Source: a virus. Taken from it: 64,000 nt of DNA. The notes under the pieces are model-generated. The model was not told where the DNA came from, searched no databases, and was given only the letters and a program-made list of their open reading frames with translations. The stretch is taken from the IMG/VR virus record IMGVR_UViG_3300037504_000288; one strand, written 5' to 3'. Of the stretch, positions 59,212 through 64,000 are shown piece by piece. A program made the translations under genes and the position numbers. Position 1 is the first letter of the stretch, and each line of letters opens with the position of its first letter.

Positions 59212-59502
59212 ATGACTGAACTAAATTTTTCAATACTAATTAAATCGATACCTTTATTAATGTGGCTGATTAGTTTTATGATATTTTTTAATATATTACC
59301 GCCCGTTATGGAGTGTGCCGACGGCGATGATATTGTAGGCGATATAACTTGCGTTAGCGATAACGGTAGCGTGTACAATGTCGAGGAGGAAGGTGTTGAG
59401 AATAAGTTCGAGAGATGGTATAAAACCATAATATATTCGACACTGTTAATGATGATTAGTGTTATGTCGATATACTTTATGTTTATAGAATGTGAAGATT
59501 GA
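59212..59502 (+). CDS. small membrane protein (96 aa)
   Basis: Two TM helices. Confidence 0.4.
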   Translation: MTELNFSILIKSIPLLMWLISFMIFFNILPPVMECADGDDIVGDITCVSDNGSVYNVEEEGVENKFERWYKTIIYSTLLMMISVMSIYFMFIECED

Positions 59503-59992
59503 CTTATTGGGAAGAACTGGCGAATGAAATGAGAGAAGAATTAACTGAAAAATAGTAACAGTTTTTCGAGAGTGATAACATGAAAACAAAAGATAGAGAA
59601 GCTGTAAATACAGAATGTGACTGTCTTCGCATAAAAAATATTATGCGTTTGTTCGCTGACGCTTACAAATGGAGGTAATTGCTATGAAAACAACAGAACA
59701 AATTATAAAAGAAATTGACGAAAAGGGAGCATTTGAAATAATTTGTATTGCATCCCCTGAAGATGGTTCAGTACGAATAAATACTGATTTACCTCATTGG
59801 AATTAATATGCTCAATTAGAATGGGTGTTGTTGAAAGAATTGAAAGAATTAATTAGGAGAAACAAGATGGATGAAGATGAATTAAAATGGAATAATACTC
59901 ATCCTGATTGGAATAAGGCATTTATAATGATAGAGAGTGCAATTACCTCAACTTCACATAATACAGATTAGTTTCAATTTGAGGTAGATATT

Positions 59993-60217
59993 ATGAGCAA
60001 CATAATAAGATGTGACAAATGTGGCTATGAAGAAAACTATAGTTGTCCCAAATATACTGAAAGAAGAACATTTCAAGAAAGGTACGAAGGTGTATCTATA
60101 ACTCACATTTGTTCAAGATGTGTTTTTAAGGATGCAATATCTTCCTCAAACTCCGCACCTAAAGGTGCTAAAACTAATAGTGATTATGTGTCCATTCATA
60201 AACTCACAAATAAATAA
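59993..60217 (+). CDS. zinc-ribbon small protein (AT-rich module)
   Basis: CDKCGY...CPKY...CSRC. Confidence 0.45.
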   Translation: MSNIIRCDKCGYEENYSCPKYTERRTFQERYEGVSITHICSRCVFKDAISSSNSAPKGAKTNSDYVSIHKLTNK

Positions 60218-60240
60218 ATTTGCTCCAGGAGGTAATCAAG

Positions 60241-60438
60241 ATGAACTTAAAAAAATATTATTTGTCTTTTAATAAAAAAGAATTATTAGAACAATTAATC
60301 AATCTCAAAAAAGGATGTGGTGCTAAAGTGGATAGCTATGGAAATTGTTGGCACATAGTTACTAATAATCCTAAGTATTGTAATAAATGTAAAAGACGAA
60401 TAAAAATAGTTGAAGAATTACTGGAGAACTTCCAATGA
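60241..60438 (+). CDS. zinc-ribbon small protein
   Basis: SD ggaggt; CGAK...CWH...CNKCKRR. Confidence 0.45.
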   Translation: MNLKKYYLSFNKKELLEQLINLKKGCGAKVDSYGNCWHIVTNNPKYCNKCKRRIKIVEELLENFQ

Positions 60439-60500
60439 TAATCGCAAATTTATTTACTTCACATAATATAGATTAAACAAAATAAATTTGAGGGCTTACA

Positions 60501-60734
60501 ATGAAAGAAAAACAAAATTCAATATTTGATTTAATTTGGATAATTCCAGAAATAATTGGAGAATTATTTATTACAGCTTATATTCCAGTAATGTTAGTAA
60601 AAGAACTTAGTATAGTTGGAGCATTAAGTATAACTGGAATGCTCTATATTGCTGTTATTTTTCTTTTACTAACAAATATGCGTTTAACTGGATTACATGA
60701 ATTATCAAAAATTAAATGGAGGAAATTAACATGA
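60501..60734 (+). CDS. small membrane protein
   Basis: ORF track. Confidence 0.4.
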   Translation: MKEKQNSIFDLIWIIPEIIGELFITAYIPVMLVKELSIVGALSITGMLYIAVIFLLLTNMRLTGLHELSKIKWRKLT

Positions 60735-60841
60735 ACGCCCTCAAATTTACTCAAGCCGACTTTGTCGGTCGTTTAATAAGTATTATATGTCCGTTCCCTA
60801 CGGTCACAAATTTTAGGGTTTAGCTAAGGAGGAAAAATAAA

Positions 60842-61030
60842 ATGGGAAATCTAATCAATGGAAATATTAATCAATTAGGTAAGATGCAAAAGATTAGTAC
60901 TGAAGTGACAATTATTCCACCAGATATTAAAGAGAGATTGGTTTCATATTTGAAATCAAAAAACGACATTGGTGAAATAATAGACGCAGATTGTCAGATA
61001 CTAATAGATGGTTGGAGAAAGATAGATTGA
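60842..61030 (+). CDS. hypothetical small protein
   Basis: SD aaggagg. Confidence 0.4.
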   Translation: MGNLINGNINQLGKMQKISTEVTIIPPDIKERLVSYLKSKNDIGEIIDADCQILIDGWRKID

Positions 61031-61119
61031 CGCTAAACCCTAAAACTTCATATAATAAAGATTATGCGTAATTTTTGCTTACGCAAAAACTTAAAAGCCC
61101 ACGAAGGAGGATGATAAAA

Positions 61120-61770: not shown

Positions 61771-61944
61771 TAATTAGTGGGCTTTTAGTCCTAGTGGACA
61801 CGCATAATAGGAATTAATTTGAATATTACTCGGACAATATTTTAGTTAAAAAAACAAAATATTTCAAAAAGTCCTGAGTCATACTCAAATTAACACGAAT
61901 TATGCGTCCGTTCGCTGGCGCTCACAAATTGAGAGGTTTTCAAG

Positions 61945-62121
61945 ATGACAAGACAAGATGAACAAGAAATGAATTTAATAAATAGATGCAATCCAAATCT
62001 GTTCAGAGGTATGGACAGGGTTGGGATAATCAAATGTAAATGTGGAAGATTAAAAGAGTGGTTTAATGGTGAATGGGATTGTATTTGTGAAAACCACTCA
62101 ACTTCGCATAATAAGGATTAG
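61945..62121 (+). CDS. 58-aa zinc-binding mini-protein
   Basis: Not in track; SD gagagg; CNPN...CKCG...CICENH; ends in conserved cataataaggattag element. Confidence 0.35.
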   Translation: MTRQDEQEMNLINRCNPNLFRGMDRVGIIKCKCGRLKEWFNGEWDCICENHSTSHNKD

Positions 62122-62295
62122 TCGAAATTTTGTTTTCGGCTGGAGGAAAAAAGAATGGTTCAAAAAAATGTAATAGAGTTTGTTGATTGTGATGAAAATT
62201 ACAATGGTGCTGGACTTCAAAGAAATGAAATAAAAGACACTGATGAGTTTTATAAAATAATGAATGATGTTAAACAATATTATAAGGTGAAATAA

Positions 62296-62745
62296 ATGAA
62301 AAAAGAAAATTATAAATTTAAAGTTGGTAACAAGGTTAAGTGCTCTAATGAAATCACTCCTGAGTTTGGAGAAATAGTTTTTATATTTGATGAATCTTCA
62401 GTTCCTTACCTTGTTCGTTTCAAAGGATGGGTTGGTGGTCATGATGGCCAGAATGGTCTAGGTTATATTTGTCCTGAAGGTGCAGAGGAAGAACACTGGT
62501 GTTGTAACGAGAGTGACTTAGAACTTGCTAACGAAGGATTGTCTTTCATGGAAGCTGTCGATGCTATGAAGCAAGGGAAGAAAGTGAAGCGTAAAAATTG
62601 GACACGCTATTACTACTTATTTATGTCATCAGGTACTATTTATTATACTGCTGATAAAGGGAGAAATTATGATGAAATGATTCCAAGTCTTGATAATATT
62701 GAAGCTATTGACTGGGAGATAGTTGTTGATGAAGATAAAGATTGA
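62296..62745 (+). CDS. hypothetical protein (149 aa)
   Basis: ORF track. Confidence 0.45.
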   Translation: MKKENYKFKVGNKVKCSNEITPEFGEIVFIFDESSVPYLVRFKGWVGGHDGQNGLGYICPEGAEEEHWCCNESDLELANEGLSFMEAVDAMKQGKKVKRKNWTRYYYLFMSSGTIYYTADKGRNYDEMIPSLDNIEAIDWEIVVDEDKD

Positions 62746-62860
62746 AATTTAGCAGATAAGCCTTCAAAAACAAACAGAATATATGAACATGGTGCAGTAT
62801 TACAAGTTGGTAAAGATGTTTTTAACAAAGACTCATATTAAGTAAAGGAGATGAAAGAAA

Positions 62861-63046
62861 ATGAGTTATTGTATAAAACATAATCCACAACCAAACAACT
62901 GGGTAAGCGTTCCAAGAAATGAATGTGAAGTTTGTATTAAGAATGCTTTTGACCCTAAGAAATGTATGATTTGCAGAGAAAAAGACGGGGCAGAAATAGC
63001 TAATAGTTTGGTTGTTTGTAATAATTGTGAGGAGATGTATTTTTGA
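62861..63046 (+). CDS. Cys-rich zinc-binding small protein
   Basis: SD aaggag; 4 CxxC pairs. Confidence 0.45.
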   Translation: MSYCIKHNPQPNNWVSVPRNECEVCIKNAFDPKKCMICREKDGAEIANSLVVCNNCEEMYF

Positions 63047-63417
63047 TTTCCTCCAACTTTATTTAATGCTAACTATGGCAAAGCTCATAAAAGGTAAAAT
63101 GAAAACGTTATATAAAATATTATTAAGTATTTTTGGAGTTGCAATTGCTTTATTGTTAATTTCATTATTACCCATTCATGATTGTGGTTATCAATTGGCT
63201 TATTATCATTGTTCAGCATGGGGTTAAAATGAAAACAAGTCCCGCAAAATAAGGTGATTTATATGAATGAAAAACAAAAGTTATGGTATATTGCAAGTTT
63301 AAATGGATTTGCACTTGGATGTTTATTTGCAATTTTATTAATTTATATATTTGCTTGATAAAAGATTTGTCATAATGCCAACAAAGCTCATAAAAAGTAA
63401 AACATAAGGTGAATGAA

Positions 63418-63666
63418 ATGGAAGAATCACAAAAAACAATAGATATTGATGTAGAAAATGAAGAAGTAGTTACTTGGGTGACAAGAAATAACGGTCAGTA
63501 CACAGTAAGTGGTATTGCTAACGTAATGTTCAAAGGAAGGCGTGTGGAGGTTGATTTGGAAACAGAGGATTTTTTTATATGTCGAAGATGTGATGAAAAA
63601 CCTTTAATAACACGTACGGAGATTGATAATAATATGTGTAATGAATGTGTTAAAATTAAGACTTAA
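63418..63666 (+). CDS. zinc-ribbon small protein
   Basis: SD taaggtg; CRRC...CNEC. Confidence 0.45.
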   Translation: MEESQKTIDIDVENEEVVTWVTRNNGQYTVSGIANVMFKGRRVEVDLETEDFFICRRCDEKPLITRTEIDNNMCNECVKIKT

Positions 63667-64000
63667 TGAAATTAAATCTGAAATATATGATTTGATATTT
63701 CATACTTAACTCATAAAAGGTAAAGAAAATGAAAAGTACAATAAAGCTATTAAAAGCAAAAACTCAAAGAATGTGGATAGAAGATAATAAACAGATACAC
63801 GCATTGAATTATTGGTATTATAAATTATTTACACATTCATATAGAAATTATTTATTATTACATTTTAAGAAGTAAAAAATAATGAAGTTAAGTTGTTTAC
63901 TTAATGCTAACAAAGCTCATAAGGTGTAAAATGACTGATAAAAAAACCGAACAAATGTTAGAAGAAATGAGAACAGATATTTCAGTGGCAACATTAGATT

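What the first reader, a model, noticed from the sequence alone, without database searches (positions are those of the whole stretch)
59500..64000. Compositionally distinct AT-rich module of small zinc-ribbon proteins with its own repeated gene-junction cassettes
From ~59500 the sequence becomes markedly more AT-rich. Genes there are tiny (32-85 aa), and many carry two CxxC pairs: 59993, 60241, 61945, 62861 and 63418. Different repeated intergenic elements replace the class-1 and class-2 promoters. The first is ACTTCACATAATA(C/T)AGATTA at 59951, 60466 and 62101, with a partial copy at 61801. Two copies form the last codons (...TSHN(T/K)D*) of genes. The second is ttatgcgt(t/c)(t/c)gttcgctg(a/g)cgct(t/c)acaaat(g/t)gag(g/a)gg at 59640 and 61898, with a related hairpin tgcgtaatttttgcttacgca at 61062. 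The third is AATGCTAACAAAGCTCATAAAAGGTAAAATG at 63065, 63371, 63708 (partial) and 63901. This looks like a hypervariable accessory region, possibly acquired from a different lineage, or an anti-defence or host-takeover cassette array. Its boundary at ~59500 is worth defining.
Basis: seen in the sequence. Interest (0 to 1): 0.65.

Follow-up and report, generated by a model that had tools for sequence, protein, structure and literature searches.

The report
Foreign small-gene block in archaeal virus
The last 4.5 kb of the window is a real, sharply bounded block of small, mostly orphan genes in a virus of ultra-small (DPANN) archaea; the block carries its hosts' DNA signature instead of the virus's own, and its genes are separated by repeated regulatory junction sequences like those that shuffle accessory genes in T4-type phages.

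Summary
From about 59.5-59.65 kb the sequence changes character. Third-codon GC falls from a median of 0.53 to 0.21 with no overlap between the two gene sets. CpG observed/expected falls from about 1.4 to about 0.5. An independent assembly spans the boundary, so it is not a chimera.

The genome is a very divergent archaeal virus (PolB, PCNA, RFC-like loader). Its main promoter is the consensus promoter of Woesearchaeota/Nanoarchaeota (DPANN), but none of its copies lies in the module.

The module has its own junction elements:
- Seven copies of a dyad-symmetric 20-mer, most followed by a stem-loop.
- Five copies of a second cassette.

All lie on the + strand between unrelated genes. They span the upstream stop codon, a ribosome-binding site and the start codon.

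The cargo is host-like. One gene (216 aa) has cellular DPANN homologues and a GOLPH3/Vps74-like predicted fold. One (149 aa) carries a Tad2-like (DUF2829) anti-defence domain. The rest are orphans, and three are true double-CxxC proteins.

Best reading: an accessory region of recently imported genes joined by PeSL-like mobile regulatory cassettes. Promoter activity and hypervariability are inferred, not shown.

The parts
59503..59620 (+). Boundary spacer between the last core-type gene (59212-59502) and the first junction element. It contains a T5 run at 59563-59567.
   Evidence: CpG o/e is 2.0 in 59201-59500 and falls to 0.57 and then 0.17 beyond 59650. The GC change point is at 59190.
59625..59676 (+). 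Junction element c5 + motif 2 copy 1, upstream of 59684. It consists of CTTCGCATAAAAAATATTA with a 7-bp hairpin (59628-59647), then ATTATGCGTTTGTTCGCTGACGCTTACAAAT, then GGAGG.
59684..59806 (+). Orphan gene, 40 aa, GGAGG ribosome-binding site.
59867..59971 (+). Orphan gene, 34 aa. Its last codons TSHNTD* are motif-1 copy c1.
59951..59970 (+). Motif 1 copy c1, ACTTCACATAATACAGATTA, 22 nt upstream of ATG 59993.
59993..60217 (+). Orphan gene, 74 aa, two CxxC pairs.
60241..60438 (+). Orphan gene, 65 aa, four Cys (one CxxC).
60456..60475 (+). Motif 1 copy c2, ACTTCACATAATATAGATTA, 25 nt upstream of ATG 60501.
60501..60734 (+). Orphan gene, 77 aa, hydrophobic (membrane-type).
60763..60815 (+). Degenerate motif-1-like copy c7 + motif 2 copy 2 (ATTATATGTCCGTTCCCTACGGTCACAAATT), upstream of 60842. 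It overlaps a doubtful 30-aa ORF. A Logan unitig breaks at 60783-60812.
   Evidence: (D5)
60842..61030 (+). Orphan gene, 62 aa.
61045..61085 (+). Motif 1 copy c3 (ACTTCATATAATAAAGATTA) followed by the 7-bp hairpin TGCGTAA/TTACGCA (61065-61085), upstream of 61120.
61120..61770 (+). 216-aa gene of cellular DPANN origin. The predicted fold is GOLPH3/Vps74-like, with an Ala/Ser/Cys-rich hydrophobic C-terminal tail.
61791..61918 (+). 128-nt near-perfect hairpin. Its 5' arm holds the motif-1-like copy c6 (from about 61797) and its 3' arm is the start of motif 2 copy 3 (61899-61933).
   Evidence: (I1). One search gives dG -46.5 kcal/mol and z -9.0, with no shuffle of 200 folding as well.
61945..62121 (+). 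Orphan gene, 58 aa, five Cys (CxC pairs). Its last codons TSHNKD* are motif-1 copy c4.
62101..62142 (+). Motif 1 copy c4 (ACTTCGCATAATAAGGATTA) + 9-bp hairpin (62119-62142), upstream of 62155. A Logan unitig breaks at 62117-62146.
62155..62295 (+). Orphan gene, 46 aa.
62296..62745 (+). 149-aa gene. Residues about 80-146 form a DUF2829/Tad2-like domain. The N-terminal ~80 residues are unassigned.
   Evidence: Pfam PF11195 scores 31.7 bits against a cut-off of 25. PDB phmmer hits SPO1 Tad2 8sme at E 0.007, as well as ModTad2 and SptTad2.
62826..62860 (+). Weak fifth copy of motif 3 (TAACAAAGACTCATATTAAGTAAAGGAG), upstream of 62861.
62861..63046 (+). Orphan gene, 61 aa, three CxxC pairs.
63056..63098 (+). 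Motif 3 copy 1 (TTTATTTAATGCTAAC..CAAAGCTCATAAAAGGTAAA), abutting ATG 63099.
   Evidence: (D2)
63099..63227 (+). Orphan gene, 42 aa, hydrophobic.
63263..63358 (+). Orphan gene, 31 aa, hydrophobic.
63365..63402 (+). Motif 3 copy 2, 16 nt upstream of ATG 63418.
63418..63666 (+). Orphan gene, 82 aa, two CxxC pairs.
63695..63728 (+). Motif 3 copy 3 (partial), upstream of ATG 63729.
63729..63875 (+). Orphan gene, 48 aa.
63896..63930 (+). Motif 3 copy 4, abutting ATG 63931. A Logan unitig ends at 63928.
63931..64000 (+). Start of a further gene, cut by the window end. The source contig is 70,677 bp, so up to 6.7 kb more may belong to the module.

Best explanation
The block from about 59.6 kb to at least 64 kb is an accessory ('hyperplastic') region of a virus that infects Woesearchaeota/Nanoarchaeota-type (DPANN) archaea.

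Its genes are recent imports from the host-like, CpG-depleted gene pool, meaning host chromosomes or other viruses of these hosts. They have not yet taken on the virus's own CpG-rich, GC3-rich signature.

The genes are joined by two families of short conserved junction cassettes. Each cassette runs from the stop codon of the upstream gene, through a conserved protein-recognition sequence and usually a stem-loop, to a strong ribosome-binding site and the start codon of the next gene. In family 1 the recognition sequence is the dyad TAAT-N5-ATTA inside ACTTCRCATAATAnAGATTA.

I propose that the cassettes work like the PeSL mobile regulatory cassettes of T4-type phages, in two ways:
- (a) They are module-specific transcription and translation start signals. 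These would be read differently from the host-consensus promoters of the core genome, so the block would be expressed as its own class, probably early.
- (b) As the only homology between otherwise unrelated genes, they are the points where homologous recombination swaps, adds or deletes genes.

The products are likely host-interaction factors: a candidate immune-signal sponge (Tad2-like), a captured host membrane-associated protein, small Cys-rich proteins and small membrane proteins.

Shown: the compositional break, the repeat families and their anatomy, the host origin of one gene, the Tad2-like domain, and the continuity of the assembly. Inferred: promoter or operator activity, timing of expression, recombination at the cassettes, and the anti-defence role.
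For: Composition:
- GC3 is 0.53 in the core and 0.21 in the module with complete separation, while GC at codon positions 1+2 is unchanged.
- CpG o/e is about 1.4 in the core and 0.47-0.68 in the module.
- Dinucleotide distance (delta* x1000) is 175 between core and module. It is 51 between the module and the AT-rich related virus, and 75-78 between the module and DPANN genomes. Pieces of the core differ from the whole core by only 14-57. A sliding scan flips between 59 and 60 kb.

Host lineage:
- The core promoter CGAAAnnTTTATATATTAGTTA occurs in more than 120 metagenome contigs.
- It also occurs in 86 GTDB contigs, mostly labelled Woesearchaeota/Nanoarchaeota and almost all archaeal.
- The viral prohibitin is 60-62% identical to Woesearchaeota/Nanoarchaeota proteins.

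Not a chimera: Logan contig L051 spans 56373-60812 at 100% identity.

Junctions:
- The repeat statistics are far above chance.
- No class-1 promoter lies beyond 58744.
- 17 of 18 starts have a Shine-Dalgarno word, against 16% of background windows.
- The flanking proteins are not paralogous.
- Stem-loops follow or embed the motif in c3, c4, c5 and c6, with G-U pairs.
- The layout is the same as that described for PeSLs (PMC2839356).
- A related virus uses dense host-type promoter cassettes in its small-gene array, 8 in 4.5 kb, and these reach into the first codons.

Recombination hint:
- All four unitig ends fall wholly inside repeated elements (rough chance estimate 8e-5).
- Motif-1/2 elements are CpG-rich (o/e 1.81, 21 CpG in 433 nt). 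The cargo between them has o/e 0.47 (Fisher p=1e-7).

Cargo:
- The 216-aa gene has cellular homologues next to eIF-1A, Rpb7, Spt4 and ribosomal protein genes.
- The Tad2-like domain is supported.
Against: - Motif 1 has no purine-rich BRE, and its A/T box (CATAATA) is a poor TATA box by the standard of the host consensus. Motif 3's conserved core abuts the start codon, which leaves no room for a canonical TATA-to-start distance unless the transcripts are leaderless. So promoter function is not supported by sequence rules and has no experimental support.
- No close relative of this segment was found, so gene turnover at the cassettes was never observed. The unitig breaks could reflect other repeats or strain variation.
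- The CpG richness of the junctions may simply come from GC-rich hairpin stems.
- Only one of about 17 products has any anti-defence similarity. That is a truncated domain (67 aa) fused to an unknown N-terminal part.
- Structure prediction for that protein failed (pLDDT 33).
Confidence: 0.55

Rival explanations
1. The module is one long operon read through from the host-type promoter at 58744 or from a few weak promoters. On this view the repeated junctions act on RNA, as processing or stability hairpins and translation-initiation regions that tune the expression of each cistron, as RNase III sites do between phage T7 genes.
For: - Every gene has its own strong Shine-Dalgarno sequence.
- All genes are on one strand with short spacers.
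- Only a weak T5 run separates the module from the upstream unit.
- Hairpins with G-U pairs follow several motif copies, and one is very stable (z -9).
- Motif 3 lies directly on the ribosome-binding site.
Against: - The conserved parts (ACTTCRCATAATA..ATTA and AAAGCTCATAAAAGGTAAA) are predicted to be unpaired.
- The hairpins differ in sequence, length and position and show no covariation.
- Two motif-1 copies (c1, c2) have no significant hairpin.
- No Rfam family matches.
- The dyad symmetry of motif 1 suggests a DNA-binding dimer.
Confidence: 0.17
2. The low GC3 and CpG of the module are not a mark of foreign origin. They would be an adaptation of native genes, for example codon usage tuned for early or low expression, or avoidance of a CpG-targeting host nuclease.
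For: - The difference lies almost entirely at third codon positions.
- Other AT-rich islands exist in the same genome.
Against: - The other AT-rich islands keep the core's CpG level (o/e 1.0-1.35), so low GC and low CpG are separable in this genome.
- The module's full dinucleotide signature matches host genomes and another virus of the group.
- Its largest gene has cellular homologues with similar GC3 of 0.27-0.33.
- All other module genes have no homologues in the core or its relatives.
Confidence: 0.1
3. The junctions are sites for a site-specific recombinase, and the block is an integron-like cassette array in which hairpin-forming repeats play the part of attC sites.
For: - The block consists of small, unrelated, mostly orphan genes separated by repeated, partly palindromic elements.
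- One junction is a 128-nt imperfect hairpin.
- The nearest relative of the neighbouring prohibitin gene lies beside a tyrosine integrase (L267).
Against: - No ORF of 250 aa or more in the window hits an integrase family.
- The elements lack the RYYYAAC...GTTRRRY core pairs.
- Most copies have only a 4-7 bp dyad.
- Every gene carries its own ribosome-binding site inside the element, and two elements are coding. That fits regulatory cassettes better.
Confidence: 0.06
4. The join at about 59.5 kb is an assembly artefact that links two different organisms.
For: The abrupt change in GC3, CpG and promoter type would be expected from a chimera.
Against: - An independently built Logan contig (k=31) runs without a branch from 56373 to 60812, across the boundary, at 100% identity. 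Two further contigs tile the rest with 30-nt overlaps.
- The same ribosome-binding-site type and strand polarity continue across the join.
Confidence: 0.03

Closest known systems
PeSL (promoter-early stem-loop) mobile regulatory cassettes in the hyperplastic regions of T4-type phages (Arbiol et al. 2010, PMC2839356; Comeau et al. 2014, PMC4122927)
   Same: Short repeated intergenic cassettes concentrated in a region of small orphan genes. Each runs from the upstream stop codon, through a conserved recognition motif and a stem-loop in a variable position (with G-T pairs), to the Shine-Dalgarno sequence and start codon of the next gene. They are the only homology between unrelated neighbouring genes.
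   Different: PeSLs contain the host sigma-70 consensus and were shown to promote and terminate transcription and to mediate indels between sister phages. Here the host is archaeal, the motif is not the host consensus promoter, and neither activity nor recombination has been observed.
Host-takeover module of Bacillus phage SPO1 (for example PMC6873191, PMC10531801)
   Same: A contiguous cluster of about two dozen small genes at one end of the replication-gene block. Each gene or pair of genes has its own strong expression signals, and the products are mostly orphans.
   Different: The SPO1 genes are native early genes driven by host sigma-A promoters, and several have proven targets. Here the block has a foreign composition and unknown targets.
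Tad2 (Thoeris anti-defence 2, DUF2829/PF11195; bioRxiv 10.1101/2023.05.01.538930)
   Same: Residues about 80-146 of the 149-aa protein match PF11195 above its gathering score. They also match the solved Tad2 chains, including the N-terminal helix motif (SF.EA...KQGKKV.R..W).
   Different: Tad2 is a single-domain protein of about 89 aa from bacterial phages. It forms tetramers and binds 1''-3' gcADPR. Here the domain is shorter, is fused behind an unknown 80-aa part, and sits in an archaeal virus. No binding, oligomer or host Thoeris system was tested.
Integron gene-cassette arrays (attC sites)
   Same: An array of small unrelated genes separated by repeated, partly palindromic elements, with a composition unlike the surrounding replicon.
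   Different: The window has no integrase and no attC core sites. The elements carry expression signals for each gene, whereas integron cassettes are typically promoterless.

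Membership tests
PeSL-type mobile regulatory cassette | Repeated intergenic cassettes concentrated in a region of small orphan genes, immediately upstream of those genes. | tested here: met
   12 copies of two families lie in 4.4 kb. 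All but one weak motif-3-like hit at 28092 are confined to the module. Each is upstream of a start codon. The products are orphans.
PeSL-type mobile regulatory cassette | Contains the host's early-promoter consensus. | tested here: not met
   The host-type consensus (CGAAAnnTTTATATATTAGTTA) is absent beyond 58744. Motif 1 has no BRE and a poor TATA. Sigma-70-type hits are at chance level (31 against 28 expected).
PeSL-type mobile regulatory cassette | A stem-loop component in a variable position within the cassette. | tested here: met
   Hairpins are present at c5, c3, c4 and c6 and next to c7. None is significant at c1 or c2.
PeSL-type mobile regulatory cassette | Spans the upstream stop codon and the downstream Shine-Dalgarno sequence and start codon. 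| tested here: met
   The TAG/TAA inside ATTAG/ATTAA ends two genes. A Shine-Dalgarno word sits before 17 of 18 starts.
PeSL-type mobile regulatory cassette | Indels and replacements between close relatives are bounded by the cassettes. | tested here: inconclusive
   No close relative was found. The only evidence is indirect: all four unitig ends lie in repeated elements.
Archaeal BRE/TATA promoter (for motif 1 and motif 3) | An A/T-rich TATA box about 26 nt upstream of the transcription start, preceded by a purine-rich BRE. | tested here: not met
   Compared with 9 window copies and about 200 host copies of the consensus, motif 1 reads ACTTCR-CATAATA, which has no BRE. The A/T box lies 37-40 nt before the ATG in c1 and c2, compatible only with very short leaders. 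Transcription starts could not be mapped.
Tad2 / DUF2829 (for 62296-62745) | Match to PF11195 above the gathering score. | tested here: met
   31.7 bits against a cut-off of 25, E 2e-7, covering residues 83-143. PDB hits to four Tad2 structures have E values of 0.007-0.044.
Tad2 / DUF2829 (for 62296-62745) | Small single-domain protein (about 90 aa). | tested here: not met
   The protein is 149 aa, and the domain occupies only the last ~67 residues.
Tad2 / DUF2829 (for 62296-62745) | Tad2 fold, tetramer and gcADPR binding pocket. | tested here: inconclusive
   The single-sequence AlphaFold model was unusable (pLDDT 33). No homologues were available to build an alignment. Binding is not testable with these tools.
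Integron cassette array | An adjacent IntI-type tyrosine recombinase. | tested here: not met
   No ORF of 250 aa or more in the window hits Phage_integrase. The unseen 64-70.7 kb was not tested.
Integron cassette array | attC sites with paired core sites (RYYYAAC ... GTTRRRY) forming a bulged hairpin at every junction. | tested here: not met
   Reading the aligned junctions shows no such cores. Only one long hairpin is present.
GOLPH3/Vps74 (GPP34) fold (for 61120-61770) | Structural similarity over the whole domain. | tested here: inconclusive
   The model is confident (pLDDT 88, pTM 0.79). The top Foldseek hits are GOLPH3 and Vps74 (prob 1.0, E 2e-3), but TM is only 0.44. The only Pfam hit is DUF2207_C, below its cut-off.

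The most novel reading that the evidence does not exclude
The CpG-rich motif-1/2 junctions are native sequences of the virus. They form a standing gene-capture platform: host-like (CpG-depleted) genes are repeatedly recombined in between identical regulatory junctions and exchanged among co-occurring viruses. That would be a PeSL-like or integron-like cassette system in viruses of DPANN archaea. It would be read by a virus-specific factor and not by the host's consensus-promoter machinery.
Probability: 0.2. Interest if true: 0.75.

Novelty: new variant of a known kind. Interest (0 to 1): 0.5.

Why it matters
Viruses of DPANN archaea are known almost only from metagenomic contigs, and nothing is known about how they regulate genes or acquire accessory genes.

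This block gives three concrete, testable handles:
- Two short DNA motifs that mark a non-consensus expression class.
- A clean compositional marker (CpG o/e) that separates recently imported genes from the viral backbone.
- Named candidates for host manipulation: a Tad2-like sponge domain and a captured host GOLPH3-like membrane protein next to a captured prohibitin.

If the junctions prove to be recombination points, modular shuffling through mobile regulatory cassettes would extend from T4-type phages to archaeal viruses.

Tried and rejected
- Nucleotide and protein searches of the module and the backbone against INPHARED phages found nothing. PolB gave only weak hits.
- IMG/VR and JGI metagenome scans with the prohibitin and the 216-aa protein found no relatives.
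- Pattern scans of IMG/VR for motif 1 and motif 3 gave 1, 39 and 7 single hits. My own estimate puts about 40 chance hits for the degenerate motif-1 pattern. All hits lie in unrelated bacterial-phage sequence, mostly coding, so these were rejected as relatives.
- The source contig (70,677 bp, JGI) could not be fetched, so the end of the module is unknown.
- Rfam gave no match in 58.5-64 kb.
- A sigma-70 promoter reading of the CATAAT/TATAAT box was rejected. Hits are at chance level and the -35 boxes are inconsistent.
- A halophile-host idea, raised by the CGAAA..TTTATATA promoter, was rejected. The pI values are not acid-shifted and the promoter maps to DPANN genomes.
- The module proteins are not paralogous.
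- Single-sequence structure prediction of the Tad2-like protein failed. The afdb50 fold library was unavailable.
- PDB sequence searches of three large unassigned backbone ORFs, run to look for a viral RNA polymerase that could read a private promoter class, found nothing.
- The similarity of 59212-59502 to 56975-57259 is only weak (E 0.015). I assign that gene to the core on its CpG content, not on homology.

Full report
**What the window is.** The 64-kb window belongs to a very divergent virus. It has no nucleotide match to 50,697 phage records.
- Its replication genes are of the archaeo-eukaryotic type. There is a family-B DNA polymerase with an intein (49997-52582), a PCNA-like clamp (44804-45568), an RFC-like AAA+ loader (45793-46686) and two XPB/Rad25-like helicases.
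- Genes on both strands are preceded by a repeated element, CGAAAnnTTTATATATTAGTTA. This has the form of an archaeal BRE plus TATA box. There are nine copies within three mismatches, the last at 58744.
- Exact copies of this 22-mer occur in more than 120 metagenome contigs (median GC 0.32).
- They also occur in 86 contigs of GTDB species representatives. Most are labelled Woesearchaeota, Nanoarchaeota or Pacearchaeota, with a few labelled as other archaea or bacteria. There the element sits 30-60 nt upstream of start codons.
- The viral prohibitin gene (57810-58682) is 60-62% identical to Woesearchaeota/Nanoarchaeota prohibitins that lie in cellular contexts.

I therefore treat the host as a DPANN archaeon of this group, and the 'class-1' element as the host-consensus promoter. 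This is an inference from sequence.

- GC falls from 0.415 to 0.308, with the best single change point at 59190.
- The drop lies almost wholly at third codon positions. GC3 has a median of 0.53 (range 0.33-0.72) in 42 core genes on the same strand, and 0.21 (0.09-0.31) in 15 module genes. The two sets do not overlap (U=630, p=1e-8). GC at codon positions 1+2 is 0.365 against 0.343, which is not significant.
- The clearest marker is CpG. Observed/expected is 1.0-1.7 in every 1-kb window from 1 to 59.5 kb. This includes the other AT-rich islands at 21-23, 27-29, 37-39 and 51-52 kb, except one window at 0.88 (28-29 kb) and one at 0.96 (41-42 kb). In the four windows after 60 kb it is 0.47-0.68.
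- The gene at 59212-59502 is AT-rich but has CpG o/e of 2.0, so it belongs to the backbone.

**Which side is 'foreign'.** Dinucleotide relative-abundance distances (delta* x1000) are as follows:

| Comparison | delta* x1000 |
|---|---|
| Core vs module | 175 |
| Core vs DPANN genomes | 210 |
| Module vs an AT-rich virus sharing the class-1 promoter (IMGVR_UViG_3300035698_013589, L002/L003) | 51 |
| Module vs DPANN genomes, whether AT-rich or GC-rich | 75-78 |
| 4.5-kb pieces of the core vs the whole core | 14-57 |

- A sliding scan flips between 59 and 60 kb.
- Loci carrying the host promoter have a median CpG o/e of 0.53. Fragments related to this virus's backbone (L081, L082, L087, L090, L267) have 0.88-1.35.
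- So the backbone carries a clade-specific, CpG-rich signature. The module carries the signature of the hosts and of other viruses of these hosts.
- The simplest reading is recent import into the module without amelioration. The alternative is selection on native genes. It fits poorly, because the genome's other AT-rich islands keep high CpG.

**Not a chimera.** Three contigs from an independent assembly (Logan, run SRR12689834) tile 56373-60812, 60783-62146 and 62117-63928. Identity is 100% and the overlaps are 30 nt. The first contig crosses the boundary without a branch.

**Genes.**
- All module genes are on the + strand and cover about 75% of the block.
- 17 of 18 candidate starts have a GGAGG/GAGGT/AGGTG word 4-16 nt upstream, against 16% of background windows.
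- Sizes are 31-82 aa, except for one gene of 216 aa and one of 149 aa.
- The proteins are not paralogous.
- Cysteine makes up 3.4% of residues, against 0.96% in the core. Three proteins (59993, 62861, 63418) have two or three CxxC pairs, which none of the 42 core proteins has.
- Pfam, PHROGs and NCBIfam give nothing significant for 14 of the products.

**Two genes are informative.**

The first is 61120-61770 (216 aa).
- It has 66 representative homologues at E<1e-3. One is annotated from a Woesearchaeota genome.
- The homologues I looked up sit in cellular neighbourhoods. These include eIF-1A, Rpb7, Spt4, S24e, S27e, Kae1 and tRNA-modification genes, and some are followed by a DnaJ-domain gene.
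- Their GC3 is 0.27-0.33.
- This is therefore a gene captured from the host gene pool.
- With a 24-sequence alignment it models confidently (pLDDT 88, pTM 0.79).
- The best structural matches are GOLPH3 and Vps74 (prob 1.0, E 2e-3). The TM-score is only 0.44, so the fold assignment is tentative.
- It ends in an Ala/Ser/Cys-rich hydrophobic tail.

The second is 62296-62745 (149 aa).
- It matches Pfam Tad2-like (PF11195) above the gathering score, over residues 83-143.
- By phmmer it also matches the solved structures of SPO1 Tad2, ModTad2, Tad2 and SptTad2 (E 0.007-0.044).
- Tad2 is an 89-aa DUF2829 protein of bacterial phages that sequesters the Thoeris signal 1''-3' gcADPR as a tetramer (bioRxiv 10.1101/2023.05.01.538930).
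- Here the domain is shorter and is fused behind an unassigned 80-aa part.
- The protein has no other homologue among 5.8 billion proteins by the word-indexed search, and a single-sequence model failed.
- The anti-defence role is a lead, not a finding.

**The repeated junctions: family 1.**
- Its core is ACTTCRCATAATAnAGATTA. Four copies lie within three mismatches, at 59951, 60456, 61045 and 62101, against 0.01 expected and with none elsewhere in the window.
- Weaker copies lie at 59625, 60763 and 61797.
- The core contains the dyad TAAT-N5-ATTA. In some copies it extends to CGCATAA...TTATGCG.
- The TAG/TAA inside ATTAG/ATTAA is the stop codon of the upstream gene in two copies, giving ...TSHNTD* and ...TSHNKD*.
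These start at 59640 and 61899, with a diverged third copy at 60782 (D5). Motif 2 is therefore an optional extension of the same cassette.
- Stem-loops follow or embed the core at 59628-59647, 61065-85 and 62119-62142.
- At 61791-61918 there is a 128-nt hairpin (dG -46.5 kcal/mol, z -9.0). It looks like an insertion into a cassette of the 59625 type.
- The hairpins differ in sequence, and the conserved part is unpaired.
- Each cassette ends with AAAT(T)GAGG-type ribosome-binding sequence and the start codon.

**The repeated junctions: family 2.**
Four copies lie at 63056-63930, with a weaker fifth at 62826.
- Its upstream part (CAACTTTATTTAATGC) resembles the family-1 core (CAACTTCACATAATAC).
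- Family 1 serves the genes from 59684 to 62155. Family 2 serves those from 62861 onward.

**How the junctions most likely work.**
- The layout is upstream stop codon, conserved motif, stem-loop in a variable position with G-T/G-U pairs, Shine-Dalgarno sequence, start codon. This is the layout of PeSLs, the mobile regulatory cassettes of T4-type phage hyperplastic regions.
- PeSLs act as early promoters and attenuators. They are also the homology at which unrelated orphan genes are swapped (PMC2839356; PMC4122927).
- The AT-rich related virus has an analogous array in which the host-consensus promoter recurs 8 times in 4.5 kb. The genes behind it share their first codons, MMGQKMET. Dense promoter cassettes in small-gene arrays are therefore a feature of these viruses.
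- In the present module the same positions are filled by non-consensus motifs.
- Their A/T box lies 37-40 nt (c1, c2) or 31-36 nt (two family-2 copies) before the ATG. The class-1 TATA lies 31-66 nt before its genes. That is compatible with very short leaders.
- However, there is no BRE, and the box is a poor TATA.
- I therefore propose a private expression class that needs a viral factor, or weak constitutive promoters. I hold this at moderate confidence.

**Two observations hint that the junctions are also recombination points.**
- First, all four ends of the independent unitigs lie wholly inside repeated elements: a class-1 promoter, motif 2 copy 2, the c4 hairpin and motif 3 copy 4. A rough chance estimate for this is 8e-5. 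A k-mer graph breaks where the same 30-mer continues in different ways, and none of these 30-mers recurs in the window. Identical junction sequence probably exists elsewhere in that sample with other flanks.
- Second, the family-1 junctions hold 21 CpG in 433 nt (o/e 1.81), which is backbone-like. The cargo between them has o/e 0.47 (Fisher p=1e-7).
- Both observations have simpler explanations, namely strain variation and GC-rich stems. Neither is proof.

**Comparison with known systems.**
- The block works like a PeSL-rich hyperplastic region, or like the SPO1 host-takeover module. It cannot be filed as either, because the defining host-consensus promoter is absent and no activity was tested.
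- It is not an integron. No integrase was found among any ORF of 250 aa or more in the window, and there are no attC core sites.
- I rate it a new variant of a known kind. It is an accessory region with mobile-regulatory-cassette architecture in a virus of DPANN archaea, made of host-signature genes set in a backbone of contrasting signature.

**Limits.**
- The window stops inside the module, and the source contig (70,677 bp) could not be fetched.
- No close relative covers this segment.
- No transcription data exist.

Noticed in passing
window 1-59500 compared with L052-L257: The viral backbone is CpG-enriched (o/e about 1.4), and fragments of related backbones have 0.88-1.35. Genomes carrying the same consensus promoter (DPANN archaea) are CpG-depleted (median 0.53), as is another virus of the group (0.57). 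The cause is unknown; DNA modification, nuclease avoidance or a different history are all possible.
   Followed up: partly
window 39657, 39818, 44571, 53702, 56371, 58744 (+) and 22993, 23550, 27412 (-): The 'class-1' element CGAAAnnTTTATATATTAGTTA is not virus-specific. It is the consensus strong promoter of Woesearchaeota/Nanoarchaeota-type archaea, with more than 200 exact copies in metagenome and GTDB contigs. This assigns the virus to DPANN hosts.
   Followed up: yes
window 448-1386, 7483-8421, 8745-9684: Three arrays of 7.8 tandem copies of a 120-nt unit (83-85% matches). They probably encode 40-residue beta-propeller-type repeats on the - strand in three paralogous genes.
   Followed up: partly
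window 20852-22645 (-) and 49997-52582 (+): Two intein-containing ORFs. The PolB intein region (51-52 kb) and the whole 597-aa ORF (GC 0.26, 15 Cys) are AT-rich islands, yet they keep the backbone's CpG level.
   Followed up: partly
window 36674-38881 (+): An AT-rich (GC3 0.28) 735-aa ORF with weak PARP / Tpt1-KptA ADP-ribosyltransferase-type matches. It may be another host-interaction gene.
   Followed up: no
L267 (ENA ERZ27257087, 4160 nt): The closest prohibitin homologue (79% aa, 74% nt) is a GC-0.43 island in non-homologous AT-rich (0.25-0.33) flanks, next to a tyrosine integrase. Single-gene compositional mosaicism seems common in this group.
   Followed up: partly
L003 2851-7294: In the related 116-kb virus, genes behind the consensus promoter start with the same peptide (MMGQKMET.., MMGHKMET.., MMGQNMKK..). 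The conserved promoter cassette therefore extends into the first codons of unrelated genes.
   Followed up: no
L007, L010, L019, L028, L031, L041 (IMG/VR bacterial-phage contigs): Six contigs with GC 0.35-0.64 share CTTCGYATAATAnnGATTATGTTAA beyond the bases fixed by my search pattern. It can be read as ..SHNxDYVK, and a stop follows directly or within a few codons in four of the six. The nature of this element is unknown. Its likeness to motif 1 may be forced by the pattern.
   Followed up: no
window 54109-54867 (+): A gene with a long Gln/Pro-rich 12-nt repeat tract (54366-54595).
   Followed up: no
window 56975-57259 and 59212-59502 (+): Two small proteins share the architecture of two membrane helices around a C..DGD..C loop. 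Sequence similarity is only weak (E 0.015).
   Followed up: partly
L261-L263: In some DPANN genomes the cellular homologue of the 216-aa module gene is followed, 4 nt later, by a small DnaJ-domain gene. This hints at a chaperone-linked role for the family.
   Followed up: no
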